The notes under the pieces: model-generated
Told to the model about the DNA's origin: nothing
The model's database searches: none
Seen by the model: only the letters and a program-made list of their open reading frames with translations
Translations under genes and position numbers: made by a program
IMG/VR virus record: IMGVR_UViG_3300033144_005150
Source of the DNA: an uncultured virus (IMG/VR IMGVR_UViG_3300033144_005150)
Lineage: Duplodnaviria; Heunggongvirae; Uroviricota; Caudoviricetes
Direction: 5' to 3' (one strand)
Length of the DNA: 64,000 bases
Part shown: positions 36,924 through 64,000 of the stretch, piece by piece
Layout: each line of letters opens with the position of its first letter
Numbering within the stretch: position 1 is the first letter of the stretch

Positions 36924-36952
36924 TTGACTTCACGTCAGAGCCCGAGTACACC
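36924..36952 (+). promoter_or_regulatory. sigma70-type promoter of Pro/Arg/Leu tRNA operon
   Basis: TTGACT-N17-TACACC. Confidence 0.65.
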
Positions 36953-36972
36953 GAATTCATCGGATTTCAGTC

Positions 36973-37089
36973 ATGAACGTCGCAAGCAACATTCTCGGGT
37001 CGAGCCTCCCCCAACCACTCTGTGGTCTGGTGCTGCTCCCCGTGCGTCTGCGCCGGCTCCCGCGATTGCCCGGTGTCCTCCGAACGTAA
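36973..37089 (+). CDS. leader peptide rich in Leu/Pro/Arg
   Basis: MNVASNILGSSLPQPLCGLVLLPVRLRRLPRLPGVLRT; 10 Leu, 5 Pro, 5 Arg. Confidence 0.65.
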   Translation: MNVASNILGSSLPQPLCGLVLLPVRLRRLPRLPGVLRT

Positions 37090-37391: not shown

Positions 37392-37394
37392 CAT

Positions 37395-37469: not shown

Positions 37470-37472
37470 TAT

Positions 37473-37549
37473 CGAGATACAGACTCAAGGAGGGTCACCT
37501 GCCTCGGACGCAGGGCATTGGGTGGGTTCGATTCCCACTATCTCGACCA
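37473..37549 (+). tRNA. tRNA-Pro(CGG), divergent D arm
   Basis: CCTGC-CTCGGAC-GCAGG; C1:G72; CCA. Confidence 0.8.
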
Positions 37550-37593
37550 ACCGGAGAAACCAACAACGATTACCTCAATCACATAAACAGCAT

Positions 37594-37665
37594 GCCTTGT
37601 TAGCTCAGCGGAAGAGCATCGGTCTACGGAACCGAGGGTCAGGAGTTCGAATCTCTTACAGGGTG
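37594..37665 (+). tRNA. tRNA-Arg(ACG)
   Basis: TCGGT-CTACGGA-ACCGA; no encoded CCA. Confidence 0.9.
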
Positions 37666-37668
37666 CTA

Positions 37669-37754
37669 TGCAGGTCGCTTTTAGTGTCAATGGAAACACG
37701 CCTTGCCTTCGGGCTTAGGAAACTCGGGTTCGATTCCGCGATAGGGCGGCTTGC
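37669..37754 (+). ncRNA. tRNA-like element with UUCG in place of anticodon loop
   Basis: D arm GTGT..ACAC; GCC-TTCG-GGC; GGTTCGATTCC. Confidence 0.5.
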
Positions 37755-37759
37755 AACTT

Positions 37760-37834
37760 GTTCTCGTAGTTCAGCGGAAGAGCGTCTCCCTCCGGAGGAG
37801 AATGTCGGGGGTTCGAATCCCTCCGGGAACACCA
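37760..37834 (+). tRNA. tRNA-Arg(CCG)
   Basis: TCTCC-CTCCGGA-GGAGA; CCA. Confidence 0.95.
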
Positions 37835-37871
37835 ACATCGGGATGTGGTCGGGGTATGGTATACTCGTCAT

Positions 37872-38405
37872 GTGTCCGACCAAAAGTTCTGCAACGCCTG
37901 TCGGAAGACTAAACCCACCAAGGAATTTTCGCACAGACCCGTCAATGGCAAGAAGTACTTACGATCAGCATGTCGCAAGTGTGAGAACAAGAAGAGATAC
38001 GCAAGGAGAAAACAATCCGGCACAACCTACGCAGACCCCCAGCGGCGTTACTCGGCCAAAGTTACAGAGATGAGGCGCAGCGGAGAAGATGTTCCTCGGT
38101 GGATCCTCCAGGACTCCAAGGGAACCGATCGAAAGTCTGGTCGCAAGAACGACCTTACTAAGGAATACATCACGGAGCAGATTGCCAAAGGGTGCTCCTA
38201 CTGTGGGGAAACCAAAATTCGCATGACTCTGGATCGGATCGACAATGACAAAGGACATACGCAAGACAACACCGTTCCGGCCTGCATCCGCTGCAACTAC
38301 ATTCGTAGAAGCATGCCTTACGAAGCGTGGCTTTGTTTGAAACCAGGACTACGGCGCGCAAAGAAACAAAATCTCTTCGGGGATTGGGTAGGTCGAGCAA
38401 GATAA
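37872..38405 (+). CDS. HNH/His-Me homing-type endonuclease within tRNA cluster
   Basis: CNAC...CRKC...CSYCG...LDRIDND.GH...N.VPAC..CN. Confidence 0.8.
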
Positions 38406-38479
38406 CGAGGTGTAGCGCAGTCTGGTAGCGCACTTGACTGGGGGTCAAGGGGCCGGAGGTTCGAATCCTCTCACCTCGA
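38406..38479 (+). tRNA. tRNA-Pro(GGG)
   Basis: CTTGA-CTGGGGG-TCAAG. Confidence 0.95.
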
Positions 38480-38481
38480 CT

Positions 38482-38635
38482 AAAAGAGTGAGATCTCAGA
38501 AGAGATCACAAGCAAAGGTATTCGGAACCCGAGGTCGCAGGTTCGACTCCTGCCCCGTTCGCCATTTATGAACGGGTAGCTCAGTCTGGTTAGAGCGCGT
38601 AGCAATTTCCATCTCCTCAACTCTCTCACTCTTTT
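38482..38635 (+). ncRNA. Y RNA (YrlA)-like permuted tRNA mimic
   Basis: outer stem AAAAGAGTGAGA/TCTCACTCTTTT enclosing T arm, loop-closed acceptor stem, then D arm. Confidence 0.7.
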
Positions 38636-38640
38636 TACTT

Positions 38641-38726
38641 GCCGATGTGGCGGAATGGCAGACGCGCTGGTCTAAGGAACCAGTGGGGGAAACCCCGTAG
38701 GAGTTCGACTCTCCTCATCGGCACCA
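38641..38726 (+). tRNA. tRNA-Leu(AAG)
   Basis: CTGGT-CTAAGGA-ACCAG; long V arm; CCA. Confidence 0.9.
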
Positions 38727-38727
38727 T

Positions 38728-38848
38728 GAACAAATGCTGGAAATGGCATACAGGGCGGCTTGGCAATCCGCTGGTTAGGAGCGACCGTGACATACACCTT
38801 TCAACGGTTTAGCAACCTCGCCTCTAGGTTCGAATCCTAGTTTGTTCA
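38728..38848 (+). tRNA. atypical tRNA, GGC anticodon in a Leu-like body with very long V region
   Basis: GAACAAA/TTTGTTC-A; loop TTGGCAA; T arm CTAGG-TTCGAAT-CCTAG. Confidence 0.6.
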
Positions 38849-38855
38849 TGTCTTT

Positions 38856-38940
38856 GCTCGAGTGGTGAAATTGGTAAACGCAGTCGCCTCAGAAGCGGCC
38901 GGAGAAATCCTTGAGGGTTCAAGTCCCTCCTCGAGCACCA
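38856..38940 (+). tRNA. tRNA-Leu(CAG)
   Basis: GTCGC-CTCAGAA-GCGGC; long V arm; CCA. Confidence 0.95.
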
Positions 38941-38983
38941 AACCAAAAGGAGAAAATCCTGATCAACACAAGTTTCACAAAAG

Positions 38984-39324
38984 CTGAGTAGGCAAGACGA
39001 TCGCGGTGGGGCTTGCCCCATCGAGGAAAGTCCGGGCTCCAAAGAGCAGGGTGCTTGGGAAATCCAAGACGGAGTGATCCGCTGGCAAGTGCAGCAGAGA
39101 GAAGACCGCCGATGGCCTTCGGGCACAGGTAAGGGTGAAAGGGTGGTGTAAGAGACCACCGGACCGCTGGTGACAGTCGGTTGCAGGTAAACCCCACTCG
39201 GAGCAAGACGAACAGAGGCGTTACGGGCTGCTCGCCCAGTCTCAGGTAGTTGCACAGATGAATGATCGTTGCCTGGTGAGGGAGACCGACCCAGGAACAG
39301 AACCCGGCTTAACAGCCTACTCAG
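38984..39324 (+). ncRNA. rnpB: RNase P RNA, bacterial type A
   Basis: GAGGAAAGTCCGGGCTCC, GGGTGAAAGGGTGGTGTAAGAGACCACC, GGTAAACCCC..GGAGCAAG, ACAGAACCCGGCTTA; P1 CTGAGTAGGC/GCCTACTCAG. Confidence 0.95.
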
Positions 39325-39337
39325 GAGATGTGTTTTT

Positions 39338-39416
39338 GCGGACGTGGGTAAATTGGTAAAGCCGCTTCGTTGAGGTCGAAGAGAATTTGCGGGTTCGAGT
39401 CCCGCCGTCCGTACCA
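39338..39416 (+). tRNA. tRNA-Leu(GAG), short V region
   Basis: CTTCG-TTGAGGT-CGAAG; CCA. Confidence 0.9.
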
Positions 39417-39442
39417 CAGACAGACCGGAAAGACGGTCACAT

Positions 39443-39516
39443 GCTTCGGTAGCCCAATTGGCAGAGGCGCTCGGTTTAGGTCCGAGAGGTTGAGGGTTCG
39501 AGTCCCTCCCGGAGCA
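39443..39516 (+). tRNA. tRNA-Leu(TAG), short V loop
   Basis: CTCGG-TTTAGGT-CCGAG. Confidence 0.9.
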
Positions 39517-39544
39517 CTACTCCAACTGGAGATTTTGAGCTGTC

Positions 39545-40751: not shown

Positions 40752-41182
40752 CCATGCGCGTCTTGATCTCGTCCTCCTGCTCTTTTTGGATCTCCCGTGA
40801 GGCCGTTCTCCGGGCTCGAGAGCTGGACGCGTCGTGGGCCTTCCCGGACCACATCCAAATCAAGGGAGAGGAGGGGTGCTGGCTCAACGACCGAGAGCAC
40901 GCTGAGGAGGAGTACTACAGTCTCGATCATCGAGTGCCTCGGCATGACCCGTTGCTGCTCCAGGTGTTCGACGAGCTCGGGCCCAAGATGAACGGGTACG
41001 ACGGCTACGAAATCAACTGCATCGAGGTCCCGGATGATCTGGCGTACTTCGTCGGGAGCTACCTCGGTGAGTGGATCGCCGAGGCCCACCAGACGTGGAG
41101 CGAGCACACCGGGAGTGAAGGTCAGTCCGGAGGAGCACCCGTCTTCACGAAGGACAGCCAGTTTTCTGACTTCGCCTCTTGA
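40748..41182 (+). CDS. hypothetical phage protein (family of 25313-25696)
   Basis: PRHDPLLLQVFDELG...EW.AE.H.TW. Confidence 0.7.
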   Translation: MTMRVLISSSCSFWISREAVLRARELDASWAFPDHIQIKGEEGCWLNDREHAEEEYYSLDHRVPRHDPLLLQVFDELGPKMNGYDGYEINCIEVPDDLAYFVGSYLGEWIAEAHQTWSEHTGSEGQSGGAPVFTKDSQFSDFAS

Positions 41183-41207
41183 CGACGCGTCAAGGTTCGT
41201 CTAAACA
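41179..41207 (+). promoter_or_regulatory. sigma70-type promoter of Tyr tRNA operon
   Basis: TTGACG-N17-TAAACA. Confidence 0.55.
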
Positions 41208-41271
41208 CAAAGGGACTCGCTGCACTGGTGCAGCCTGACGATCAACCCCGACCACGAAAGGAGCCAAGCAG

Positions 41272-41334
41272 ATGAACGCGACGTATCGAACTTATTCTTG
41301 GCTCCGCGGGTCGTGCGGGTTGATTGAGGGCTAA
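41272..41334 (+). CDS. leader peptide with two Tyr codons
   Basis: AAGGAG RBS; MNATYRTYSWLRGSCGLIEG. Confidence 0.6.
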   Translation: MNATYRTYSWLRGSCGLIEG

Positions 41335-41393
41335 CCAAAAGCCGCGACATCACCCACTAGGCACCACCCTCGGAGCGATTCAAGCAATCGCAT

Positions 41394-41467
41394 CCGGTTG
41401 AAGCCTCAGAGGCGAGGCGGCGTGGCTGTAACCCACGTACCAGAGGGTTCGACCCCTTCCAACCGGA
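41394..41467 (+). tRNA. tRNA-Tyr(GTA), C1:G72, short V loop
   Basis: CCGGTTG/CAACCGG-A; CGTGG-CTGTAAC-CCACG. Confidence 0.8.
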
Positions 41468-41492
41468 CTAGACGCATAAGTGCGTCTTCTTT

Positions 41493-41578
41493 GGATGGGT
41501 GTCCGAGTGGTTAAAGGAAGCAGACTGTAAATCTGCCGCGTTCGCGCTACGAAGGTTCAAATCCTTCCCCATCCACCA
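41493..41578 (+). tRNA. tRNA-Tyr(GTA), bacterial type
   Basis: G1:C72; long V arm; CCA. Confidence 0.95.
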
Positions 41579-42477: not shown

Positions 42478-43044
42478 GTGGTCCCCACCAGCAAAACTTG
42501 CCGAAAATGCAACGAAGATAAGCCTCTGGAAGAGTTCTATCGCTCTCCCGACTGCCGATTTGGCCGAATGGCTCGTTGTAAAAAATGCGTCTCAAAGAAA
42601 CGTGAGGAGGTCCAAAACAACCCCAAAAGAGTCCCCAAAAAGAAGAAGTGCAATAGTTGCCAACGGGTAAAACCCGCATCCGAGTTTTCCCGTCGTGCTT
42701 CAACCGCTTCTGGACTCAGGGCGTACTGCAAGGTGTGTTGCGATCTAGATCGGAAAACTCCTCGGCAACTTTTCAGGCGCTACAAACAGTCCGCTCGTGA
42801 TCGCAACCTGTCTTTCAAAATTACGTTTGAAAAGTTCCTCTCTTTTCAAAAGCACCCTTGCACTTACTGCGGAGACACTCAGGACGCGATCGCTCTTGAC
42901 CGCATCGATTCAAACGTCGGATACGAAATACACAATCTCACCCGCTGCTGCGGGACCTGTAATTATATGAAACGCCGTCATTCTGTTGAGGAGTGGCTGG
43001 CCCATCTGGAGAAAGTTCTACGGCACATGGGCCGTACAAAATAG
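42478..43044 (+). CDS. HNH/His-Me homing-type endonuclease
   Basis: repeated CxxC; CTYCG...LDRIDSN.GY...N...CC..CN.MK. Confidence 0.8.
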
Positions 43045-43054
43045 GAGAAGCAAC

Positions 43055-44215
<1,161 letters not shown>

Positions 44216-47188: not shown

Positions 47189-48583
47189 TCAGTCGCCCAG
47201 GAGGGCTTCGTAGGCTTCTTGCTCGGCCTTGGCCATGGCACGGCCCATCTCAGCCCCGGGCTCCATGCCACGGTCGATCAGGTCCTTGCCGGTCAACGCC
47301 GGTGGGGACTCTGCGAAGTTCACGAACGCTTTGACCTCATCGATGGCGGGTTTGCCCAGAGCCCGAGCAGCCCCCATGATGTCCGACGCACCGATGTCGG
47401 CTTTCTCCATCGACTGAAGTTTCTGGTAGACCGCCTTGAGCTTGAGAGCTTCGGCGGGGCTGAGGTCCCGCATCTTGAGCAGGAACAGGACCTTTTGAAT
47501 CTCCGCGTCCGAGTACTTCATCTTGCGCATGACCTTCCCGATCTTTTTCTGTTTGTTGTCGCGCAGGAGACTCACCATCTGGAGGATGGGATCGGGAGTG
47601 TCCAGGTAGGTTTTGCCGACCGTGAGACCAGGGAACATCTGGTCGAACAGGCCCAGCTCCTCCAGCATCTTGAGGTAATGCTTTGGGTCCTTGGCCGATG
47701 CGATGCCACGAACGAACTCGTCCCGAATACGCTCGGGAGAGACTTCGTTTAGATCAGGATCGTCTTTGATGGCCTTGGAGGTCTCGGCATCGATCTCAGC
47801 GCCCAGGCGCCCCGCGAATCGGACGACACGCAGGACTCGGAGCTTGTCTTCGCGGAACCGGTCCTTGGGACGGCCCACGGTTTTGATGACGCCTTCTTTG
47901 GCATCCTTGATGCCGCCGACGTAGTCCACGATTTCTTTCGTGTCCAAGTCGTAGAACAAAGCGTTGATGGTCAGGTCGCGGCGAGCCACGTCCTCGTCGA
48001 TGGTCGTGAACCTCACCTCATCGGGACGACGGCCTTCACCCACGTCTTCGCGGAAGGTGGCGATCTCGTACTCTTCGCCCTCTTGGTCTTTGACCAGGAC
48101 GACACCGAAGGCTTCACCCGCCGTCTCCTTCTGTACGCGGAGTCGTTTGTCTTTGGAGAGCAGTTCGATGACTTTTTCGGGATGGGCCTCGGTCGCTAGA
48201 TCGAAATCCTTGGGCTTCTTGCCCAGGACATGATCTCGCACAGCGCCGCCAACCAGGTAGAGCTCGTGGCCGGCGTCCTTGAGGAGCTGGTGGATGATGT
48301 TGGCGCCTTCGGGCACCGGGATCTTGGCCTTCACCCGAATCGGAGTTCGACGTGTGCCCTTGGCTGCTTGTGCTTTGAGGGCCTGACGCCAACGCCGGTA
48401 TTCGTGGAAAAGCTGAGCTCGGAACCGGTCGTCGGTCTTCATCAACGTGAAGACTCCGACCTTCGGGTACTTATCCCGAGAGTCCAAGTTGGTGTTTGGA
48501 ACCTTGGCGCGGCCTCCGTCCTTCCCGAACTTGTGTTCGAGGAACTTGAGCCAGAGTTCTGGCATGTTCTTTGTGGAAGGCAT
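47189..48583 (-). CDS. cca: class II CCA-adding enzyme / poly(A) polymerase with N-terminal extension
   Basis: LYLVGGAVRD..KDFDLAT, EIATFR, DVARRDLTINAL, RFREDKLRVLR, VSPERI. Confidence 0.9.
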   Translation of the reverse strand: MPSTKNMPELWLKFLEHKFGKDGGRAKVPNTNLDSRDKYPKVGVFTLMKTDDRFRAQLFHEYRRWRQALKAQAAKGTRRTPIRVKAKIPVPEGANIIHQLLKDAGHELYLVGGAVRDHVLGKKPKDFDLATEAHPEKVIELLSKDKRLRVQKETAGEAFGVVLVKDQEGEEYEIATFREDVGEGRRPDEVRFTTIDEDVARRDLTINALFYDLDTKEIVDYVGGIKDAKEGVIKTVGRPKDRFREDKLRVLRVVRFAGRLGAEIDAETSKAIKDDPDLNEVSPERIRDEFVRGIASAKDPKHYLKMLEELGLFDQMFPGLTVGKTYLDTPDPILQMVSLLRDNKQKKIGKVMRKMKYSDAEIQKVLFLLKMRDLSPAEALKLKAVYQKLQSMEKADIGASDIMGAARALGKPAIDEVKAFVNFAESPPALTGKDLIDRGMEPGAEMGRAMAKAEQEAYEALLGD

Positions 48584-49218: not shown

Positions 49219-49291
49219 CTCGATGGAACTCTACCGGGCATACGACACGCGATTGCATCCCTCCTTATCTTAGGAGCGAGGAAGCACTCGT

Positions 49292-49368
49292 GCGCGCGTA
49301 GCCCAACTGGTAGAGGCACTAGATTCAAACCCTAGGTGTTGTCGGTTCGAGTCCGACCGTGCGTACCA
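49292..49368 (+). tRNA. tRNA-Leu(CAA), short V loop
   Basis: loop TTCAAAC; CCA. Confidence 0.85.
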
Positions 49369-49371
49369 CCT

Positions 49372-49446
49372 GCGCAGGTAGCCCAATTTGGTAGAGGCAG
49401 GAGGTTTAAGCCCTCTTCGTTGTGGGTTCGATTCCCACCCTGCGCA
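49372..49446 (+). tRNA. tRNA-Leu(TAA), short V loop
   Basis: GGAGG-TTTAAGC-CCTCT. Confidence 0.9.
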
Positions 49447-49449
49447 CCT

Positions 49450-56704: not shown

Positions 56705-58368
56705 TACCGCCCCACCCGTGCTTCGATGACGTAGCGGATGAACTGCTGTTTGGGATCGAAGATGACGTGCTCGTCGTTGCCGAGGCTCATGCTGTTGCGA
56801 CGACCGGTGGCAGCGAAGACGGAGTCCGTGCCTCGTGGGCACGTTGTCGTGGTCCACATGGTGTCTGTGGCCATGTGGGCTTTGCCCATGGTCAGGTCGC
56901 ACAGGAACATGAAGAACCCGCGCGACTTGATGCCACCGCCGCCACCGTAGTAGCCGCCTCCTGTGTAGCCGTGCGACTTTTTAATGTCGGTCGCAAAGTA
57001 GATGCCGTGGCCGAAGGCAGCGCCCGTGATGTGGACGCCCTTGAGGCTCTTGGGGAGCCGGAGGTCGGATGACAGGATCGGCTGGACGTTGACGGCACGA
57101 GTGCCGTGGATGCCGATGCAGATGTTGGCGTCTCCGTACCAGTCCGCCATGTCCTGGATGTCGATGCGTTCCTTGGGTTGGTGGCCGGCACGGTTGTGCT
57201 TCGTTCCCTTGCGACTCTTGGCGATGGTCTTCGCGCGGTCCATGAACGCCTTGCGCTTGGCTACGTCCTCGACCGCGAACATATTGAGGACCTTGAACCC
57301 ACCACGGAGGTTGCCGTGACGGTTGTTGGTCATGCCCAGGTAGGTCGCCTCGACGTACTGGCCGAGTTCGGACTTGGGGTCGATCCAGGTGATGTTGCGA
57401 CCCAGGACCTTGTTGGGGTCCACTTGGTTGTCTTCCTGGATCTCGGCCTCGAAGTCCTCGTTGAGCAACGCAGCCTCGAACGCATCGAGGTCCTGCTGCA
57501 CAAGGAGGATGTTGTTTGAACTCAGGATGACCGCGGACGCATCACCGGTTCGAGGGATGGGGCGCGGGACGATTGTGGCGACGAAGGTGGACAGGTCTTG
57601 CAGCTTCTTGTTCTTGAGCTGCTTGGCCAGAAGTTTGTCGGGGTCCGGGTCCGTGCCGATCTTTGCGAGGATTCCGAGCGCGTCGGGGATCAACTCGTCA
57701 CGCACCTTGGCGATCGAATCCATCGTCGGCGTAACACCGGACTTCGCAGCAGCGGCACGAGCGTAGTCGACCGTACCTCCGACGAGCGACTTGGCGAGAG
57801 CGATGACCTGCGGCTGTGCGTCGATCTTCTTCTTGGACTTGGTCTTCTTCTTGGCCGCCTTCTTTTTGGTGCCCTTCTTGGCAACCCCGGAGTCGTCCTT
57901 GATCCCGTAGGCGTCGGGAAGTCCACGCTCACGAGTGGCGAGTTTCTGGACAACATAGCCCGACTTGCCTTTCTTGCCGACCCAGATTTCGCTGCTCCCG
58001 ATCTTCTTCTTCTCGATGACCTTGATGTTCTTCGTGCGACACTGCTTCTCGAAGAACGCACGAGCGTCAGCTTCACCGTTGCACTGCACGAACTGATAAT
58101 CCTGGCTCTGAAAACCCTGGTCCCAGGATTTTCCTCCCACGATGCGTCCCCATTCGAGGTACACGAACCATGATCCATCCGCGTTGACGACCCCCGCGTG
58201 GTAGTACTTGTTCTTGTTGTCGGACCCGAGTTGATCGATGCAGACCATGTCGGCAATGCCGACATCGGGTCCGAAATCATCTTGATCAACGGCGGGGCGA
58301 CCTTGGTACTTGAAGTCGTCCGCACTGAAATTAGAAGGGAACTCTTTCCTGCCGAGTTTCGTTGCCAT
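56704..58368 (-). CDS. WGR-domain PARP-like ADP-ribosyltransferase
   Basis: N-terminal NKYY...EWGRI; HGTR, FGHGIYFA..KSHGY, DEHVIF (H-Y-E triad). Confidence 0.88.
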   Translation of the reverse strand: MATKLGRKEFPSNFSADDFKYQGRPAVDQDDFGPDVGIADMVCIDQLGSDNKNKYYHAGVVNADGSWFVYLEWGRIVGGKSWDQGFQSQDYQFVQCNGEADARAFFEKQCRTKNIKVIEKKKIGSSEIWVGKKGKSGYVVQKLATRERGLPDAYGIKDDSGVAKKGTKKKAAKKKTKSKKKIDAQPQVIALAKSLVGGTVDYARAAAAKSGVTPTMDSIAKVRDELIPDALGILAKIGTDPDPDKLLAKQLKNKKLQDLSTFVATIVPRPIPRTGDASAVILSSNNILLVQQDLDAFEAALLNEDFEAEIQEDNQVDPNKVLGRNITWIDPKSELGQYVEATYLGMTNNRHGNLRGGFKVLNMFAVEDVAKRKAFMDRAKTIAKSRKGTKHNRAGHQPKERIDIQDMADWYGDANICIGIHGTRAVNVQPILSSDLRLPKSLKGVHITGAAFGHGIYFATDIKKSHGYTGGGYYGGGGGIKSRGFFMFLCDLTMGKAHMATDTMWTTTTCPRGTDSVFAATGRRNSMSLGNDEHVIFDPKQQFIRYVIEARVGR

Positions 58369-58524
58369 CTGGTTTTCCTGTTGGTCTTTCGTCCGTTGTC
58401 TGAGACTTGGAGCTGACCGCTCAAACCTTCTACCCCTTGATGGCGGGATCACTTACGCACGGGGCGGGGGAACTTTTTACATACGCCAGGAGGGTTTTTC
58501 ACGAAAAGGCGTATAACCCCTGAG

Positions 58525-58782
58525 ATGAAGTGCCCCTACTGCCCTGCGCAAATCGCGTATCTTGGAGAAAAGCACGACTGCCCCTTCCCGGAGCTATCCA
58601 GCGGTGATCCTCTTGGGCCCGAGGATTTCGGCGGGACCGACGAAGGCTCCCACTACATGTCGTCCAGCCAGGGCATGAAAGGGCTCGGCTACGGGACGAC
58701 CGAGGCCGACACCTGTGTGGTGATCGGCCCCGCGCACCCTTCCCAGGTCAAAGACATCGTAGGCGACCTCAAACTTCTGTAA
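58525..58782 (+). CDS. hypothetical protein
   Basis: MKCPYC...HDC; TATAAC 7 nt upstream. Confidence 0.6.
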   Translation: MKCPYCPAQIAYLGEKHDCPFPELSSGDPLGPEDFGGTDEGSHYMSSSQGMKGLGYGTTEADTCVVIGPAHPSQVKDIVGDLKLL

Positions 58783-58810
58783 CGTTTTTCAGGTTTCTCG
58801 AATAAAGTCC

Positions 58811-58839
58811 TTGACGCCAAGGTCTGAGGCGACTAGAAC
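58811..58839 (+). promoter_or_regulatory. sigma70-type promoter of Glu/Asn tRNA operon
   Basis: TTGACG-N17-TAGAAC. Confidence 0.65.
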
Positions 58840-58869
58840 GGAATTCCACTTCTGAAGTGGAACAGAACC

Positions 58870-58962
58870 ATGGCACTCCTGCTCAATACTTACCCCGTGC
58901 GGCCCGCTCTCGTTGAACGAGAGTGTGAGGGTGAACCATGCCTGCGCGGGGCAAATAGCTAA
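58870..58962 (+). CDS. leader peptide with clustered Glu and two Asn codons
   Basis: MALLLNTYPVRPALVERECEGEPCLRGANS. Confidence 0.6.
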   Translation: MALLLNTYPVRPALVERECEGEPCLRGANS

Positions 58963-59026
58963 GCAGTTCGAGAGCCAAAAGCCAACGAACGACAGCTACC
59001 CCGCGCAGGAAGGTTCATCCCCTCTT

Positions 59027-59103
59027 GCCGGAGTGGTCTAGCGGCTTAGGATGTCCGACTTTCACTCGGAAGATCGCGGGTTCGAATCCCGTCTCCGGTA
59101 CCA
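59027..59103 (+). tRNA. tRNA-Glu(TTC)
   Basis: TCCGA-CTTTCAC-TCGGA; CCA. Confidence 0.95.
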
Positions 59104-59106
59104 CCT

Positions 59107-59183
59107 GTCCCGTTCGTCTAGTTGGCCTAGGATCTTCGCCTCTCACGCGGAAGACACCGGTTCGAATCCGGTACGGTACACCA
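59107..59183 (+). tRNA. tRNA-Glu(CTC)
   Basis: TTCGC-CTCTCAC-GCGGA; CCA. Confidence 0.9.
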
Positions 59184-59186
59184 CAT

Positions 59187-59258
59187 GCTCCATTCGTATA
59201 GTGGTTAATACCGCGGGTTCTCAGTCCGCAAACCGGAGTTCAATTCTCCGATGGAGCA
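59187..59258 (+). tRNA. tRNA-Glu(CTC)
   Basis: GCGGG-TTCTCAG-TCCGC. Confidence 0.9.
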
Positions 59259-59348
59259 CTAAGTGTCGAGGTCGAGGACAGTGGCCGCTGTCATCTCGTG
59301 AAGCATCCTAACCCGATCGGGGTGACCTAAAAGATCGGAACTTTTCAA

Positions 59349-59424
59349 GGGTCGGTAGCTCAGTGGTCAGAGCGGCTGTTTGTTAGTCAGCGGGTCGTGA
59401 GTTCAACTCTCACCCGGCCCTCCA
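59349..59424 (+). tRNA. tRNA-Asn(GTT), divergent
   Basis: loop TTGTTAG; CCA. Confidence 0.8.
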
Positions 59425-59432
59425 AATTTCAT

Positions 59433-59507
59433 TCCGAAATGGTGTCAGCGGTAACACGGCGCACTGTTAATGCGCAATCGGGGGTTCGAATCCCTCTTTC
59501 GGAGCCA
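59433..59507 (+). tRNA. tRNA-Asn(GTT)
   Basis: GCGCA-CTGTTAA-TGCGC; G73-CCA. Confidence 0.92.
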
Positions 59508-59632
59508 TTTTTGAAGAAGCGCAGTGGGAGGACTCGAACCTCCCGGAAGCCCAACCTTACGGAACAGCAACCCCTCCGTCGGCCTGCGCCTGTCCATCGT
59601 ACCCGTTGGTGCGTCTATAGGCGCCCCTTCAT

Positions 59633-59863
59633 GTGACGAAGCTGAGCCTCCTGGATCTCATCGACGAGTATCAAAACTCGACCGGTGGGGCCTTGTCCCG
59701 CGTCGTGCGCTACGACGAAGACGGGGTGACGCCCCTCGTCATCGAGTTTTCACGTACCGACGACGAGGGGACTGTCTGGACTACACAGCGCAATTTGAAG
59801 ACCGGTGACTACCAAGCCCCTACGCGGACTTCGCCGACCGTACCCTTGATGACGAAGACCTGA
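59633..59863 (+). CDS. small hypothetical protein
   Basis: 76-aa ORF. Confidence 0.5.
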   Translation: MTKLSLLDLIDEYQNSTGGALSRVVRYDEDGVTPLVIEFSRTDDEGTVWTTQRNLKTGDYQAPTRTSPTVPLMTKT

Positions 59864-60888
59864 TCGCTCGGGTCCACGGACTCGTTCTCGGGGAGCATGG
59901 GCATCCCCTTCTGGAACCCGAGTTCCATGATGCTCTTGAGGCCCTTGAGCTTGTCGGTGCCTCCCAGAGCTTCCTGGCTCTCGTCGTAGTAGTCGAACCA
60001 CGGGTAGCCCTGGCGCGTGTACACGGAAGCCGTCACCGGGGTTGTGGGCGCCTTCTTCTGGGTGATCGCTTCCCAGGCCATCGAGTTGGCGAGGTGAACG
60101 AAGCACCGAGCCCTCTGGGACCGTTGCCACACTTCCATGCCGTGCGGGTCTTTGAAGATCTCCTGCTTCATCTTGCCGCCAGCACCGATGCCCATCTCGG
60201 CCGAGACACCGCGCTCGTTCTCCATGGAGTCACTCAGGCACAGGGTGCTGGCGTAAACGCCGGGAGCTGCGAAACCGCCGCCACGCGTGACGCCGCCGCT
60301 GGTCTTGACCTCACGCGGTTTGATCTTCGGGAACTTCTTGTCGAAGGTCAGGAAGTCCATCGGGTACACCTCGATCTGGATGCCACCGTGGTCGGCCTTC
60401 CCAGTGAGTTGCTCCTCGGCCGTGAACCCAGCACCGAGCGGGGCTGCCACGAACTGGCGCACTTGATCATCATCGACCGCATACCCATCGATCCAGGGCT
60501 GCTCGGGAACGACACAGTAGTCATCCTCCGTCATCACCTTGACCCACTCGTCACCGGTGATCGCCGAGATCTTGCCGGTGCCGATTTTGACGGCGAACGG
60601 GTAACGGGTACGGCGCTTCGGGATGTTCTTGGAGCTGAACTTGATCCACAGCGCTTCGGCTTGGTACATCGGCAGCATCACGCCACCATGATCGAGCCAC
60701 TTGGCCGGCACACGCTCACGATGGTCATCGACGTGCTGGAGCGGGAACGTGCCGAGCCCAGGAGGGAGCGGGTATGTCTTGTCGTCGTCGGGGATCCGAA
60801 GGGTTCGGACAAAGGTGATGGTGAGTTCCGCATCCGGGTGGATTTCGGGGAACGTGAATTTCAGGGTGTCTCCGTTGAGTTCGAGCAT
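59809..60888 (-). CDS. conserved hypothetical protein
   Basis: RTLRIPDD..YPLPPGLG.FPL, LPMYQAEALW, QPWIDG, RQFVA.PLG.G. Confidence 0.85.
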   Translation of the reverse strand: MLELNGDTLKFTFPEIHPDAELTITFVRTLRIPDDDKTYPLPPGLGTFPLQHVDDHRERVPAKWLDHGGVMLPMYQAEALWIKFSSKNIPKRRTRYPFAVKIGTGKISAITGDEWVKVMTEDDYCVVPEQPWIDGYAVDDDQVRQFVAAPLGAGFTAEEQLTGKADHGGIQIEVYPMDFLTFDKKFPKIKPREVKTSGGVTRGGGFAAPGVYASTLCLSDSMENERGVSAEMGIGAGGKMKQEIFKDPHGMEVWQRSQRARCFVHLANSMAWEAITQKKAPTTPVTASVYTRQGYPWFDYYDESQEALGGTDKLKGLKSIMELGFQKGMPMLPENESVDPSDQVFVIKGTVGEVRVGAW

Positions 60889-60918
60889 CTGTCTTCTCTT
60901 TTCACATTGGGTTGGTGG

Positions 60919-61272
60919 TTACCACTCTCCGTCTCGAACTTCACGAACGACACGAACGATGGCGTGGTCAGCTAGATCGGCAAACTGTTCGATGACCGAG
61001 GCGAACAGCTCTGGGCGCTTGGAAATGATCTCGACGAGTCGAGGGGAGATTTTGCCGGCCAGGGCCATCAGCACGTCGAGGTTCTCCCCAAGCTCGCGTG
61101 CGAGGGCCTCGATGACCTCTTCGGACGGGGGCTTCGTCTTCCCGCTCTCCAGGTGGCTCAGGTACGTCGGAGAGATGCCCGCACGGCTTGCGACCTTGCG
61201 GAGCCCGTACTGAGGGCTCTCGGCTCCCAGAGCCGTCCTGCGGGCTCTGATGTGGTCTCCGAATTTGGACAC
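60919..61272 (-). CDS. XRE-family HTH regulator
   Basis: GLRKVASRAGISPTYLSHLESG..PPSE. Confidence 0.88.
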   Translation of the reverse strand: MSKFGDHIRARRTALGAESPQYGLRKVASRAGISPTYLSHLESGKTKPPSEEVIEALARELGENLDVLMALAGKISPRLVEIISKRPELFASVIEQFADLADHAIVRVVREVRDGEW

Positions 61273-61360
61273 ACAGAGTGTTTAGTCTTTGCAAACGCTC
61301 GTGTCAACCCCTAATCGACAGCGAGATTCTCGCTCAGGTTTCCGGGTAGGTTGAGGGGCC

Positions 61361-61882
61361 ATGCGAAGTTTCATGACTGTCACCCTTCTGGTCGGCCTGG
61401 TTTTCACGATGGGGTGCCCCAAAGCTGAGACGGCTCAGCAGGTGGACAAGATCGAGGATTCGACGAAAAAACCCAAACCCGTTCCCGCAACGGCGATGGT
61501 CCTCATTCGGAACACGCACAAGGCTCTCGAGGCCGACTGCGGAGAGCATTTGCCGGAGGTCAAAAAAGGGGCTGAGCTCGCGAAGCTCGCGGTTTCCGAG
61601 TCAGATCAGAAGGAGGCCGACACTCTCCTAGCCGACATCGGTTTGTTCGCCCAGCAGTGCGCCAGCTACGATGCCCCGGAGCCCAAGACGGAAGGGTGCA
61701 GCCAGGACTGCTCCCGGTGCCCGGTCAAGTGGTACTGGTGCATCGAGAACGCCGGAGCCTGTGCTGGGGGCGACCACAAAGCGTGCTGCAAGCTCGGAGC
61801 CTGCGGGTCCAAACACCACTGCGAAAAGGTGTGCAAGTCGAGCTGTAGCTGCGACGTGTCGCCAGAGCCGGCCGGCGGCTGA
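61361..61882 (+). CDS. Cys-rich putative lipoprotein
   Basis: signal ending TMGC; many C-terminal Cys. Confidence 0.7.
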   Translation: MRSFMTVTLLVGLVFTMGCPKAETAQQVDKIEDSTKKPKPVPATAMVLIRNTHKALEADCGEHLPEVKKGAELAKLAVSESDQKEADTLLADIGLFAQQCASYDAPEPKTEGCSQDCSRCPVKWYWCIENAGACAGGDHKACCKLGACGSKHHCEKVCKSSCSCDVSPEPAGG

Positions 61883-61961
61883 TCGATCTGCGGACATGAA
61901 AAGACCCCCGGCCCGGATCGGGCACGAGGGTCTTCTCAAATCCCTCTCTGACTGACGGGTG

Positions 61962-62426
61962 TTAGGCGGCCCTCCGCTTGGGGGCAGCCTTTTTGCGAGC
62001 GGTGGTGGTTTTCTTGGGTGCCGCCTTCTTGCGAGCGGTCGTTTTCTTCGCGGCTTTCTTCGCGGTCGTCTTCTTGGGGGCTGCCTTCTTGGGGGCTGCC
62101 TTCTTGGGGGCTGCCTTCTTGCGAGACGTGGTTTTCTTGGCTGCCTTCTTCGCCGTCTTTTTCGGCGCAGCCTTCTTGCGAGCCGTCGTCTTCTTGGCGG
62201 ATTTTTTCGCCTTGGGCTTCGCGGTTGCTTTCTTCTTCGGTGTGGTCTTGGCCACCTTGGTCTTGTTCACCTTCTTGCGGGCCGTGGTCTTCTTCGCCGT
62301 CTTCTTGGCCTTGGGCTTGGCTTTCGCTTTTGCCTTCGTGCTCGAAGAGATCTTCTTGACGCGAGGGGTGGTGGCCTTCTTGGCCTTGGATTTCGCCTTC
62401 GCTTTGGTCTTTGTAGCTGTCGTCAT
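61962..62426 (-). CDS. histone H1-like (Hc2/AlgP-type) basic protein
   Basis: KKAAPKK and KKTTARKK repeats; GGAG RBS; terminator-like hairpin at about 61899-61935. Confidence 0.85.
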   Translation of the reverse strand: MTTATKTKAKAKSKAKKATTPRVKKISSSTKAKAKAKPKAKKTAKKTTARKKVNKTKVAKTTPKKKATAKPKAKKSAKKTTARKKAAPKKTAKKAAKKTTSRKKAAPKKAAPKKAAPKKTTAKKAAKKTTARKKAAPKKTTTARKKAAPKRRAA

Positions 62427-62683
62427 GTGTTTCTCCATCTGTCCGTCTGAGAGGGAGCGGCAGTGCCGCATCGTGAAAATAGTACCCGCAGAAAATCAAA
62501 TCGTCTCAACGGTATGATGAGGTCAGCCATGTGTTCCTCCTTTGCAGGAGAGGACGTGCCCCCTTCGGATAAGTAGTGCCATCCGGAGGGGGCTTTTTTG
62601 TAGTGCTTCCACCGCTGTCCAGATCGCGTAGTATGAGGACGCGGGTTCGTACAACACGGACCCATCACACGGAGACACAACAC

Positions 62684-63217
62684 ATGACCGACAGTAAAAA
62701 AGCATCCCAGCTTCCGGGCGATGAGCCTGAAACCACTGAGACTCAAGAAACGGTGGCCACCCTCGTGGAACGCAAGACTCCAGCACCCACCCGAATCAAA
62801 GGCAACAGCGTGGTTCGTGACTCGTTGCGCAGGGCACGACAAAAAGCAGAAGAGGACTCCGAGAGCAGCGTCCAGGAGTACACCCTCGTCCGGGACGACA
62901 ACCGTCCTCTCCGGTTCAACGGCATCCTGGTCGGCTACAACGAAGTGAACATCGAAGAGGATCCTCGTGGGACCCAGGTCCAGATCTTCGTCACAGGCTC
63001 ACGGAAGATCATCACCGCGGTTTACCAGTGGCAGCGCAAAGAAGGGCTCGAGCGTGAACGGCACAAAGCCAAAGTTCACGAAAACCCGGAGGCGGCTGTG
63101 GAGTTCCTCGAAGAGGACGGTGGTGGAAAGCTCGGTCGGGCTTCACGGGAAGCCTGGGACATGGCCTGCCAGGTCGAACCCTCTCTCAAGGGTCACGACG
63201 TGGAAGTGATCGACTAG
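62684..63217 (+). CDS. hypothetical protein
   Basis: GGAG RBS; 177 aa. Confidence 0.7.
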   Translation: MTDSKKASQLPGDEPETTETQETVATLVERKTPAPTRIKGNSVVRDSLRRARQKAEEDSESSVQEYTLVRDDNRPLRFNGILVGYNEVNIEEDPRGTQVQIFVTGSRKIITAVYQWQRKEGLERERHKAKVHENPEAAVEFLEEDGGGKLGRASREAWDMACQVEPSLKGHDVEVID

Positions 63218-63259
63218 GATCTCGGTGTCTTCTCTATCGGTCTCCGTAAGGTAAGACCG

Positions 63260-63571
63260 ATGGCGAAACCTATCCCGATCCCGCAGCTTCTTCTTTTCAC
63301 GCTGCCCGCAGTTTTGACGACTGTGATCTTGGCCCTGACCCCTCTTGGGTGGGACCTCCACACGCAGCTTGAAAATTCACGAGCCGAAGTCTTCGAGCTT
63401 CGTGAAGTTCTGCACACACAAGTGACCTGCACTCCGGTGCAAGTCACTTGTGTGTGTCCCGAGTACGACCAAGGCTGGGACGATGCCGAGTTTGCCGAAG
63501 GGATCGCCATCGAAGACCTCGAACTGATCTGCGCCGAGCTCAACGAGTTCGGGTACCTCCCTCGCTGCTGA
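63260..63571 (+). CDS. membrane-anchored hypothetical protein
   Basis: N-terminal TM segment. Confidence 0.6.
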   Translation: MAKPIPIPQLLLFTLPAVLTTVILALTPLGWDLHTQLENSRAEVFELREVLHTQVTCTPVQVTCVCPEYDQGWDDAEFAEGIAIEDLELICAELNEFGYLPRC

Positions 63572-63576
63572 CCTCT

Positions 63577-63686
63577 GCGCTGGGCGTGTGGTACGCGCAG
63601 AGGAACTCGAAGCGGTAACGTTAGAGCGGGGATCTGCTTTGCCCCGGCCATTCTCTCTGTTCCAGGTTCGACTCCTGGCTGGTGCG
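63577..63686 (+). ncRNA. tRNA-like element
   Basis: GCGCTGG/CTGGTGC with G3:U70; T arm CCAGG-TTCGACT-CCTGG. Confidence 0.4.
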
Positions 63687-63730
63687 CTTTTTCTAAACTC
63701 AGGTCTTCGTCAGAAAAATGAAGAATTCGT

Positions 63731-63759
63731 TTGACTTCGCGTCTGAGCCCCGGTAAGCC
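63731..63759 (+). promoter_or_regulatory. sigma70-type promoter resembling that at 36924
   Basis: TTGACTTCGCGTCTGAGCCC vs TTGACTTCACGTCAGAGCCC; N17-TAAGCC. Confidence 0.65.
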
Positions 63760-63780
63760 TTTTGAACTGAGGTAGTCACC

Positions 63781-63927
63781 ATGACCAACGTCCAGAACAT
63801 CAACTGTCGAGTCTTCCAGTCCGTCGCCGCAGATCCTTCTGCAGCCGCCGCGGCAGGATCGTGCTCCGGTTCGTGCTCAGGATGGCGAGGTATGGAGCCC
63901 AGTAGTTACGTCTCCAGACGTGTCTAG
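63781..63927 (+). CDS. leader peptide rich in Ala/Ser/Gly/Cys
   Basis: GAGG RBS; MTNVQNINCRVFQSVAADPSAAAAAGSCSGSCSGWRGMEPSSYVSRRV. Confidence 0.55.
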   Translation: MTNVQNINCRVFQSVAADPSAAAAAGSCSGSCSGWRGMEPSSYVSRRV

Positions 63928-64000
63928 TCCCCTTCGGGTGTACTAGACAACCCCGGAGGGCTCTACGCCCCCGAGGCCGACTGGAGAGGCAAGAGACTTC

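What the first reader, a model, noticed from the sequence alone, without database searches (positions are those of the whole stretch)
63731..64000. Fourth leader at the window edge gives a testable prediction
Seen: a promoter nearly identical to that at 36924, a GAGG RBS, and a 48-aa uORF with 9 Ser, 7 Ala (run AAAAA), 4 Gly and 3 Cys, followed by hairpins. Inference: a tRNA cluster containing Ala, Ser and probably Gly/Cys tRNAs starts just beyond base 64000.
Basis: inference. Interest (0 to 1): 0.78.

Follow-up and report, generated by a model that had tools for sequence, protein, structure and literature searches.

The report
Codon-matched leader gating phage tRNAs
A giant marine-sediment phage places a tiny test gene, written in the codons for serine, alanine, glycine, cysteine, tryptophan and AGA-arginine, in front of the tRNA genes that read those codons, probably so that these tRNAs are made when ribosomes run short of them.

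Summary
At 63731 there is a promoter copy of the one at 36924 (18 of 20 bases). A GAGG follows, then a 48-codon ORF (9 Ser, 7 Ala, 4 Gly, 3 Cys), then hairpins.

The prediction is supported, but through a relative. I could not read past base 64000 in this genome. A syntenic 619-kb IMG/VR phage (G001) has the homologous promoter and 48-codon leader. Its leader is followed by tRNA-Arg(UCU), Ser x4, Gly x2, Ala x3, Trp and Cys. The window's last 34 bases (63967-64000) align with the 5' half of that tRNA-Arg.

The pattern is general. Ten of 13 tRNA clusters in the two phages have a small ORF written in the codons their tRNAs read, for example MALWLQQQQI before two tRNA-Gln. The true leader-cluster pairing beats all other 3,628,799 permutations. 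The match is frame-specific (95/244 against 25/234 and 33/234). It covers 39 of 40 anticodons.

The mechanism is inferred. A conserved hairpin overlaps each ORF's end and reaches the tRNA, and a ribosome stalled on the cognate codons would keep it open. The window's leaders have no canonical terminator.

I found no paper on such control of tRNA genes. This scan has noted the same kind of element in other phages.

The parts
63731..63759 (+). Promoter-like motif: -35 TTGACT (63731-63736), 17-nt spacer containing GTCTGAG, -10-like TAAGCC (63754-63759)
   Evidence: Copies stand before the small ORFs at 36924, 41179 and 58811, and before 8 clusters of the relative. The generic sigma-70 consensus scan does not call it.
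63769..63772 (+). GAGG Shine-Dalgarno-like sequence, 8 nt before the ATG
   Evidence: A GAGG stands 9 nt before the ATG of the homologous leader in L002.
63781..63927 (+). 48-codon leader ORF plus TAG stop. 25 of its 47 codons after the ATG are read by the tRNA set of the relative's downstream cluster.
   Evidence: All 12 anticodons of that cluster have a cognate codon in this ORF.
63838..63885 (+). Run of 16 consecutive cognate codons: TCT GCA GCC GCC GCG GCA GGA TCG TGC TCC GGT TCG TGC TCA GGA TGG
   Evidence: 51 nt around it differ at one base between the two phages, while the promoter-to-tRNA stretch as a whole is 70% identical.
63922..63948 (+). Hairpin with a cUUCGg tetraloop whose 5' arm contains the last codon and the stop codon. 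It excludes the next hairpin.
   Evidence: a suboptimal fold at -20.9 against an MFE of -22.3 kcal/mol. The same pair of folds appears in L002 (-22.5 and -21.3).
63925..63965 (+). Conserved spacer hairpin running from the stop codon to 1 nt before the tRNA (CCCUUCGGG pairs with CCCGGAGGG; the stop codon pairs with CUA)
   Evidence: 12 of 12 pairs are kept in both phages. One pair changed on both sides: the last base of the stop codon, G-C in the window and A-U in L002.
63967..64000 (+). 5' half of tRNA-Arg(UCU): acceptor strand, D arm, anticodon stem and the first 4 loop bases. It is cut off by the window end.
   Evidence: Aligns with L002 4206-4130(-), which ARAGORN calls tRNA-Arg(tct). Rfam does not score the 34-nt fragment.
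36924..37089 (+). Sister unit B: promoter plus 38-codon leader MNVASNILGSSLPQPLCGLVLLPVRLRRLPRLPGVLRT, before tRNA-Pro x3, Arg x3 and Leu x4 (37168-39517)
   Evidence: The two hairpins after the ORF keep 25 of 25 pairs in the relative.
41179..41334 (+). Sister unit C: promoter plus 20-codon ORF MNATYRTYSWLRGSCGLIEG, before tRNA-Tyr x2 (41394-41578)
   Evidence: This is the weakest case: 2 Tyr in 19 codons, p = 0.1.
49223..49273 (+). Sister unit D: 16-codon ORF MELYRAYDTRLHPSLS with one TTG and one TTA codon, before tRNA-Leu(caa) and tRNA-Leu(taa) (49292-49448)
   Evidence: TTG, TTA and the stop codon are kept in the relative while 5 other codons change.
58811..58962 (+). Sister unit E: promoter plus 30-codon leader MALLLNTYPVRPALVERECEGEPCLRGANS, before tRNA-Glu x3 and Asn x2 (59027-59507)
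   Evidence: The long stem from codons 20-27 to 2 nt before the tRNA keeps 36 of 36 predicted pairs in the relative.

Best explanation
The stretch 63731-64000 is the control region of a tRNA operon of an uncultured huge phage. It holds a promoter, a ribosome-binding site and a 48-codon leader ORF written in the codons of the downstream tRNAs, including one run of 16 consecutive such codons. By homology these tRNAs are Arg-UCU, four Ser, two Gly, three Ala, Trp and Cys. A conserved hairpin spans from the leader's stop codon to one base before the first tRNA. The first tRNA, Arg-UCU, starts at 63967.

The most likely working is as follows. Ribosomes translate the leader while RNA polymerase is just ahead. 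If any of the tested codons is read slowly because its tRNA is scarce, the ribosome stalls in the ORF's 3' part. There it covers the 5' arm of the hairpin, the hairpin stays open, and the tRNA genes are expressed. If decoding is fast, the ribosome terminates and leaves. The hairpin then closes and shuts the operon down, either by ending transcription or by hiding the RNase P site.

Shown: the parts, the codon match, its frame specificity, and conservation of the ORF and the hairpin in a second phage. Inferred: that the ORF is translated, the direction of the control, and whether the hairpin acts on transcription or on processing.
For: 1. The homologous leader in the relative is followed by exactly the tRNA set the window's leader is written in.

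2. The rule holds across clusters. Ten non-orthologous leader/cluster pairs were tested, 9 from G001 plus the window's Tyr unit. Cognate-codon fractions run from 2/19 to 32/47, against coding-gene expectations of 0.009 to 0.24. Nine of 10 reach binomial p < 0.02, and own cluster ranks first by observed/expected in 9 of 10. The true pairing gives the highest score of all 3,628,800 permutations.

3. Striking single cases in G001. MALWLQQQQI (CAA CAG CAA CAG) stands before tRNA-Gln(ctg) and Gln(ttg). MFVMKRKHKL stands before Lys x4. MLTHSHTELPSAGGDHHHL stands before tRNA-His. Three AGG codons and one ATA stand before tRNA-Arg(cct) and a CAU-anticodon tRNA. MKRSTTNIATTATSMVVVAVVRPIMGDTTPC stands before Thr x4, Asp x2 and Val x3.

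4. The match is frame-specific: 95/244 codons in frame against 25/234 and 33/234 in the other two frames. 39 of 40 distinct anticodons have a cognate codon in their own leader.

5. All 4 orthologous leader pairs keep ATG, frame and stop position. Two have changed stop codons (TAG/TAA, TAA/TGA) and F has frame-preserving indels. The cognate codons are kept or gained while other codons vary.

6. The hairpins that overlap the ORF ends are kept in both phages: 25/25, 36/36 and 12/12 pairs, with many G-C/G-U switches and one double change.

7. In 9 of 10 leaders, cognate codons lie within the last 6 codons of the ORF or, for the His leader that reads into tRNA-His, of its pre-tRNA part. A ribosome stalled there would cover the hairpin's 5' arm (read).
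Against: No hairpin followed by a T-run lies between leader and tRNA in any of the window's four promoter-bearing units B, C, E and F. Only the Gln leader of G001 has one.

The F leader's bulk composition is not rare for random ORFs in this 59% GC DNA: 11 of 219 reach it, and 11 of 219 cover all 12 anticodons.

The main codon run (63838-63885) ends 37 nt before the hairpin starts. Stalls there would not cover the hairpin.

The leader ORFs were picked by eye as the first ATG after the -10. For the Gln unit the ORF starts at the second ATG, 5 nt after a first one in another frame.

Three of 13 clusters have no leader by this rule (Ile/Met, Asp-atc, and the Lys-ctt/odd-tRNA cluster).

Only two genomes could be compared. 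There is no expression data for the leader. The window's own downstream tRNAs were not seen.
Confidence: 0.6

Rival explanations
1. Same parts, opposite logic. Leader translation is needed to carry RNA polymerase through, either by coupling, by shielding the RNA from Rho, or by melting the hairpin when the ribosome reaches the stop. In this reading good decoding turns the tRNA operon on and stalling turns it off, which is a positive loop or a licence check.
For: The hairpin's 5' arm contains the stop codon, so a ribosome that reaches the ORF end melts it, while one stalled in the main run 37 nt or more upstream does not. The spacers of units C and E are C-rich and G-poor, as Rho loading sites are (recalled property of rut sites). 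There is no canonical terminator or antiterminator pair.
Against: A loop that lowers tRNA output when the tRNA is scarce has no obvious use. Cognate codons cluster in the last few codons, where a stalled ribosome would also hold the hairpin open. All known cognate-codon leaders act the other way (established knowledge of trp, his, leu, thr, ilv and pheA).
Confidence: 0.15
2. The leader and hairpin act after transcription. The closed hairpin pairs the pre-tRNA 5' leader right up to the cleavage site and blocks RNase P or exposes the transcript to decay. A stalled ribosome opens it and allows maturation.
For: The hairpins end 1-2 nt before the first tRNA in units F and E. The His leader of G001 reads straight into tRNA-His, leaving no room for a terminator. 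No T-run follows the hairpins. This phage carries its own RNase P RNA inside unit B.
Against: A block at the first tRNA would not control the 4-kb remainder of the operon. A stalled ribosome would itself cover the cleavage site. The Gln unit has a textbook terminator.
Confidence: 0.15
3. The ORF is a chance open frame in the GC-rich 5' leader of an ordinary tRNA operon, and its composition merely reflects base composition.
For: Ser, Ala, Gly and Arg are what random frames in 59% GC DNA encode. 11 of 219 small ORFs match the F codon set as well. Several leaders have only a weak Shine-Dalgarno.
Against: The true pairing is the best of 3,628,800 permutations. The match is frame-specific. A run of 16 cognate codons is unique among 219 ORFs. 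QQQQ, HHH, K.K.K, AGG x3 and TTG/TTA use codons that are AT-rich or rare here. ORF length and stop position are kept through stop-to-stop changes and indels.
Confidence: 0.05
4. The ORF encodes a small functional peptide unrelated to tRNA control.
For: The C-terminal half AAAAGSCSGS.SGWRG.EPSS is conserved between the two phages.
Against: The N-terminal half is replaced by different residues of the same cognate classes. Conservation extends to synonymous sites, as expected if each codon, not each residue, matters. Ten unrelated peptides each mirror their own tRNA cluster.
Confidence: 0.03

Closest known systems
Leader-peptide transcription attenuators of enterobacterial amino-acid operons (trpL, hisL, pheL, leuL; multivalent thrL and ilvL), recalled; principle as in the abstract of PMC1183508 (search listing)
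   Same: A short ORF lies between the promoter and the regulated genes. It carries runs of codons cognate to what the operon supplies. RNA hairpins overlap or follow the ORF. The ribosome serves as the sensor of charged-tRNA supply.
   Different: The regulated genes are the tRNAs themselves, not biosynthetic enzymes. One leader tests up to 12 anticodons of 6 amino acids and uses all synonymous codons. No hairpin plus U-tract terminator and no clear three-segment antiterminator is present in this window.
pheST attenuator (pheM leader controlling phenylalanyl-tRNA synthetase), recalled
   Same: A cognate-codon leader controls a component of the decoding machinery rather than amino-acid synthesis.
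   Different: It controls a synthetase gene through a classical terminator, for a single amino acid.
pyrBI attenuator and ermC/cat-type leaders, where a ribosome physically prevents a hairpin, recalled
   Same: In the proposed mechanism a ribosome sitting on the leader keeps a downstream hairpin open, without a separate antiterminator.
   Different: There the signal is UTP-dependent polymerase pausing or a drug-stalled ribosome, and the hairpin is a U-tract terminator or hides an RBS. Here the signal would be slow decoding of cognate codons, and the hairpin abuts a tRNA.
T-box riboswitches, recalled
   Same: They sense the state of a specific tRNA to control genes of the decoding supply chain.
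   Different: T-boxes bind the tRNA directly and need no translation. No T-box or other cis-regulatory Rfam family reaches its threshold in the window.
Leader-ORF units in front of phage tRNA clusters noted earlier by this scan on other DNA (e1-2978539, e1-6026389, e1-5737766, e1-6072339 and others)
   Same: The logic is the same: a tiny ORF in the codons of the tRNAs behind it, in uncultured phages.
   Different: Those notes describe a switchable terminator, whereas here a canonical terminator is absent in the window. Here the scheme covers 10 separate amino-acid-themed operons of one huge-phage lineage. These are AI notes that I did not re-test.

Membership tests
Leader-peptide (ribosome-mediated) transcription attenuator | Short ORF with a start signal between the promoter and the regulated genes | tested here: met
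   Promoter 63731-63759, GAGG 63769-63772, ORF 63781-63927, first tRNA at 63967.
Leader-peptide (ribosome-mediated) transcription attenuator | Regulatory codons cognate to the product of the regulated genes, enriched beyond chance | tested here: met
   25/47 codons in the window and 32/47 in the relative, with a run of 16. Across 10 units the true pairing is the best of 3,628,800 permutations. The match is frame-specific.
Leader-peptide (ribosome-mediated) transcription attenuator | Intrinsic terminator (GC-rich hairpin plus U tract) just before the first regulated gene | tested here: not met
   No terminator-like site lies between leader and tRNA in units B, C, E or F. One is present only in the Gln unit of G001.
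Leader-peptide (ribosome-mediated) transcription attenuator | Mutually exclusive antiterminator and terminator pairings | tested here: inconclusive
   The spacer has two exclusive folds of nearly equal energy in both phages (-22.3/-20.9 and -22.5/-21.3 kcal/mol), but neither is a canonical terminator.
Leader-peptide (ribosome-mediated) transcription attenuator | Read-through rises when the cognate charged tRNA is scarce | not testable with these tools
   This needs a reporter or in-vitro assay. No usable RNA data: the one RNA contig laid near the leader covers 63445-63681 only.
T-box riboswitch | Match to the Rfam T-box model | tested here: not met
   No T-box match at gathering score in the window, and none at E <= 10 in 63500-64000.
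tRNA (for 63967-64000) | Cloverleaf recognised by a tRNA detector | tested here: inconclusive
   Only 34 nt lie in the window, so ARAGORN and Rfam cannot call it. The stretch aligns with 31 of 35 columns identical to the 5' half of L002's tRNA-Arg(tct), which both ARAGORN and Rfam call.
Sigma-70-type promoter | TTGACA, 16-18 nt, TATAAT consensus | tested here: not met
   The consensus scan finds 0 sites, because the -10 is TAAGCC or TAnnnC. Support comes instead from recurrence. TTGACN(5-6)GTCWRRG occurs 5 times against 0.21 expected. The broader motif occurs 5 times on the + strand and 0 on the - strand, against 0.62 in shuffles.

The most novel reading that the evidence does not exclude
A lineage of huge phages runs almost its whole tRNA complement as ten or more amino-acid-themed operons. 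Each operon is gated by its own leader ORF, which samples every anticodon of that operon. Together they would form a modular array of decoding-capacity sensors that switches on only the tRNA families the infected cell is running short of, for instance after host anticodon nucleases or host shut-off. It would work by direct ribosome occlusion of a hairpin abutting the first tRNA, not by the classical terminator/antiterminator pair.
Probability: 0.4. Interest if true: 0.9.

Novelty: new variant of a known kind. Interest (0 to 1): 0.82.

Why it matters
Why phages carry tRNAs, and when they use them, is an open question. A built-in sensor that reads the cell's decoding capacity codon by codon would show that phage tRNA supply is regulated on demand. 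It would extend leader-peptide control, a 50-year-old paradigm known for amino-acid synthesis genes, to tRNA genes themselves.

It also has practical use. The leader's codon content predicts the identity of the downstream tRNAs, as it did here. The short leader-plus-hairpin modules could be tested in cell-free systems as natural sensors for single tRNA species.

Six full-text searches found no paper describing it. Subscription journals and supplements are outside that library.

Tried and rejected
**Direct read beyond 64000.**
- No whole genome is held for the window.
- The exact 40-mer of the window end has no match in viral, metagenome or genome contigs.
- Megablast found no match in phages or plasmids.
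- The promoter 20-mer and the 213-aa neighbour found nothing in viral contigs.
- The 178-aa neighbour gave one 1.5-kb metagenome contig in metagenome contigs (L001, 66% identity). It has a different downstream gene and no tRNA.
- Read laying showed that a contig of run X1 (record 8, 1124 nt) runs 570 nt past the window end, but the tool does not print those letters.

**Reads laid on the stretch.** No differences were listed in 63731-64000 for X2 and X5. X2's listed piece stops at 63844 and X5's starts at 63798. The RNA-library contig of X19 covers 63445-63681 only and says nothing about the leader.

**Relatives that led nowhere.**
- L003/G002 (51% identity, 126 kb) has no tRNAs.
- A 26-mer of the leader found only G001 again.
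- The 359-aa gene in GTDB genomes gave 80 loci of bacterial homologues, about 37-59% identical and mostly Planctomycetota and Gemmatimonadota MAGs. They are of no use for the leader and give at most a weak host hint.

**RNA and signal scans.** Rfam at E <= 10 over 63500-64000 gave only chance-level hits. The consensus scans found no canonical promoter or terminator at the leaders. I looked by eye for an antiterminator in the Gln unit of G001 and found none.

**Whole-leader fold.** The fold of 63765-64000 is only mildly better than shuffles (z = -1.95).

**tBLASTn of the 546-aa ORF** against phages gave no match.

Full report
**What is at 63731-64000**

The sequence holds TTGACT (63731-63736), a 17-nt spacer and TAAGCC (63754-63759). 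The first 20 bases match the site at 36924 in 18 of 20 positions. These are the only two matches in the window at up to 3 mismatches, against 0.02 expected.

A GAGG lies 8 nt before an ATG at 63781. The ORF 63781-63927 encodes MTNVQNINCRVFQSVAADPSAAAAAGSCSGSCSGWRGMEPSSYVSRRV.

A narrower motif, TTGACN(5-6)GTCWRRG, occurs 5 times in the window against 0.21 expected. Four copies (36924, 41179, 58811, 63731) each precede a small ORF, and the first three ORFs are followed by tRNA clusters. The fifth copy lies inside a tRNA-Pro gene and is chance. The generic sigma-70 scan does not call these sites, because the -10 ends in C.

**What the window is**

- It is 59% GC.
- It carries 22 ARAGORN tRNAs in amino-acid-themed groups.
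- It has a bacterial type-A RNase P RNA inside one of those groups.
- It encodes an EF-Tu homologue, a CCA-adding enzyme, a UvrD helicase and a PARP-domain protein. Several proteins match phage-only families.
- The index search listed 20 runs from 16 studies as holding all or part of the last 1.2 kb. Laid on 58000-64000, long pieces with few or no differences turned up in a marine-sediment run (possibly the source), a seawater run and a sediment run.

**Getting past base 64000**

No genome is held for the window, and exact and near-exact searches failed. One public contig runs 570 nt further, but its letters are not shown.

The 359-aa gene at 59809-60888(-) found a relative at 83% identity on an IMG/VR contig of 618,736 bp. 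That contig is locus L002, record G001, with CheckV completeness 92%. Gene order is collinear with the window.

Read in the window's direction, L002 carries Glu x3 and Asn x2, which is the window's cluster at 59027. Then come the 359-aa gene and the homologues of the window's last two genes. Next is the promoter TTGACTTTGCGTCCAAGCCCGCGTACAGC, a GAGG, and a 48-codon ORF: MSPIPNSIRRASSSAAAFVAAAAAGSCSGSWSGWRGTEPSSCASSRRV. After it come tRNA-Arg(tct), Ser(gct), Ser(gga), Ser(tga), Ser(cga), Gly(gcc), Gly(tcc), Ala(tgc), Ala(cgc), Ala(ggc), Trp(cca) and Cys(gca).

The window's final bases align with the start of that tRNA-Arg, with 31 of 35 columns identical. So the first tRNA begins at 63967 and the window ends in its anticodon loop.

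It is very likely, but not proven, for this genome.

**The rule is general**

G001 has 55 Rfam tRNA matches. I fetched nine further regions of it. I took as leader the first ATG ORF after the -10 of the recurrent promoter, or after a TATAAA promoter in the Leu-TTR unit.

Ten of 13 distinct clusters in the two phages have such an ORF:

| Clusters' tRNAs | Leader or its cognate codons |
|---|---|
| Thr x4, Asp x2, Val x3 | MKRSTTNIATTATSMVVVAVVRPIMGDTTPC |
| Gln(ctg), Gln(ttg) | MALWLQQQQI (CAA CAG CAA CAG) |
| Lys x4 | MFVMKRKHKL |
| His, Phe x2 | MLTHSHTELPSAGGDHHHL..., which reads into the tRNA-His gene |
| CAU-anticodon tRNA, Arg(cct) | a leader with three AGG codons and one ATA |
| Leu(taa), Leu(caa) | a leader with one TTA and one TTG |
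| Pro/Arg/Leu | see parts (unit B) |
| Glu/Asn | see parts (unit E) |
| Arg/Ser/Gly/Ala/Trp/Cys | the F leader |
| Tyr x2 | the window's Tyr unit (unit C) |

Three clusters have no leader by this rule: Ile/Met, Asp(atc), and the Lys(ctt)/odd-tRNA cluster, which follows a conserved 88-93-aa protein. They were left out of the tests.

For the Gln unit the leader is the second ATG, 5 nt after a first ATG in another frame.

**Statistics**

I used one version of each unit: 9 from G001 plus the window's Tyr unit. The four orthologous window leaders were left out to avoid double counting. The His leader was cut at the tRNA start.

Cognate-codon counts were 32/47, 8/29, 22/40, 13/30, 4/9, 3/9, 5/19, 4/27, 2/15 and 2/19. 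Expectations came from 7,490 codons of 26 long window ORFs and ran from 0.009 to 0.24.

- Nine of 10 units have binomial p < 0.02. Tyr has p = 0.1.
- Own cluster ranks first by observed/expected in 9 of 10.
- The true pairing gives the highest summed excess of all 3,628,800 permutations.
- The match is frame-specific: 95/244 in frame against 25/234 and 33/234 in the other frames.
- 39 of 40 distinct anticodons are represented in their own leader. The miss is Phe(gaa).

For the window's own fourth leader, 25 of 47 codons belong to the relative's cluster set. Against coding background this gives p = 1.7e-5. Against random small ORFs of this GC-rich window it is only the top 5%, since 11 of 219 reach it. 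Covering all 12 anticodons is equally common (11 of 219). The run of 16 consecutive cognate codons is unique, with only 1 of 219 ORFs, the leader itself, having a run of 10 or more.

**Conservation**

All four orthologous leader pairs keep start, frame and stop position.

- The stop codon changes TAG to TAA in F and TAA to TGA in E.
- F has frame-preserving indels.
- In E, all Glu and Asn codons are kept. Three of the 8 codons that differ become Glu or Asn or stay Asn; 4 of the other 5 change the residue.
- In the Leu-TTR leader, TTG and TTA are kept while 5 other codons change.
- In F, a 51-nt core differs at one base while the promoter-to-tRNA stretch as a whole is 70% identical. This is what one expects if each codon, not each residue, is under selection.

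**Structure and likely mechanism**

No hairpin plus T-run lies between leader and tRNA in the window's units. The Gln unit of G001 does have one, about 10 nt before the tRNA.

What recurs instead is a strong hairpin whose 5' arm lies in the last codons or the stop codon of the ORF. Its 3' arm ends close to the tRNA.

- In unit B, 25 of 25 predicted pairs are kept in both phages.
- In unit E, 36 of 36 are kept.
- In unit F, 12 of 12 are kept. One pair changed on both sides, and it involves the last base of the stop codon.
- The F spacer also has a second, exclusive fold, a cUUCGg hairpin, within 1.4 kcal/mol of the first in both phages.

Cognate codons lie within the last six codons in 9 of 10 leaders (for the His leader, of its pre-tRNA part). 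I therefore favour direct occlusion. A ribosome stalled there covers the 5' arm and keeps the hairpin open. A ribosome that terminates and leaves lets the hairpin close and shut the operon. This step is inference.

Three things are not settled: the sign of the control, whether the hairpin stops transcription or blocks RNase P, and the role of the long upstream codon run, which ends 37 nt before the hairpin.

**Known or new**

Six full-text searches (listings and abstracts only) found leader-peptide attenuation only for amino-acid, synthetase and resistance genes. None concerned tRNA genes or phage tRNA clusters.

This scan has recorded the same kind of unit on other phage DNA. I did not re-test those notes, and they are not independent evidence.

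I class this as a new variant of a known kind. It uses leader-peptide logic, with tRNA operons as the target, a multi-anticodon codon panel, and, here, no canonical terminator.

Noticed in passing
window 38985-39327 (+): A full-length bacterial type-A RNase P RNA (243.8 bits, model positions 1-367) sits inside the Pro/Arg/Leu tRNA operon of this phage, between tRNA-Leu(cag) and tRNA-Leu(gag). The 619-kb relative G001 has no match to this family.
   Followed up: partly
window 42986-44215 (+) and 47189-48583 (-): The phage encodes an EF-Tu homologue (all three EF-Tu domains, E 3e-60) and a CCA-adding enzyme or poly(A) polymerase-family protein, close to the tRNA operons.
   Followed up: no
window 27048-27125 and 27264-27339 (+): Two tRNAs that ARAGORN reads with 8-nt anticodon loops (four-base 'anticodons' tcaa and aagc). 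Rfam scores both as tRNA at about 52 bits. They follow tRNA-Lys(ctt) and a conserved 88-93-aa protein instead of a leader ORF.
   Followed up: no
window about 26225-26303 (+), behind promoter copies at 26080 and 26130: By eye this is a tRNA-like RNA, with acceptor-like ends, a GGGTTCGAGACCC T arm and an encoded CCA, but with a 9-nt 'anticodon' loop containing AAGC. ARAGORN and Rfam do not call it.
   Followed up: no
window 63603-63687 (+): A tRNA-like element with a CCAGGTTCGACTCCTGG T arm lies just upstream of the promoter, and its T arm is conserved in L002. ARAGORN calls it tRNA-Ser(gct) only at a relaxed threshold, and Rfam does not call it. A similar weak call lies at 59518-59602 (-).
   Followed up: partly
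window 61962-62471 (-): A 169-aa Lys/Ala/Pro/Thr-rich protein with AAPKK and TAKKAAKK repeats, resembling a histone H1-like DNA-binding protein. It has no PHROG match.
   Followed up: no
window 41330-41350 and 58975-58990 (+): The spacers behind the Tyr and Glu/Asn leaders share the motif CCAAAAGCC in a C-rich, G-poor stretch.
   Followed up: no
L004 2117-2180 (-), G001: The His-rich leader (5 His in its first 19 codons) has no stop before the tRNA. The frame reads on through the tRNA-His gene for 53 codons in all.
   Followed up: partly
L002 2580-1969 (-), G001: Protein genes are interspersed among the Ser/Gly/Ala tRNAs of the relative's cluster. One is a 203-aa ORF with a KLDGSN motif, which recalls (from memory, not tested) the nucleotidyl-transferase motif I of RNA ligases.
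   Followed up: no
window 58405-58919 compared with 62092-63844: In run X2 the stretch 58405-58919 differs from the window at 28 bases and 2 indels in 515 nt, all 28 listed differences lying in 58436-58620, upstream of the Glu/Asn promoter. The 1.75 kb ending in the fourth leader differs at only 3 bases, so divergence between strains is uneven.
   Followed up: no
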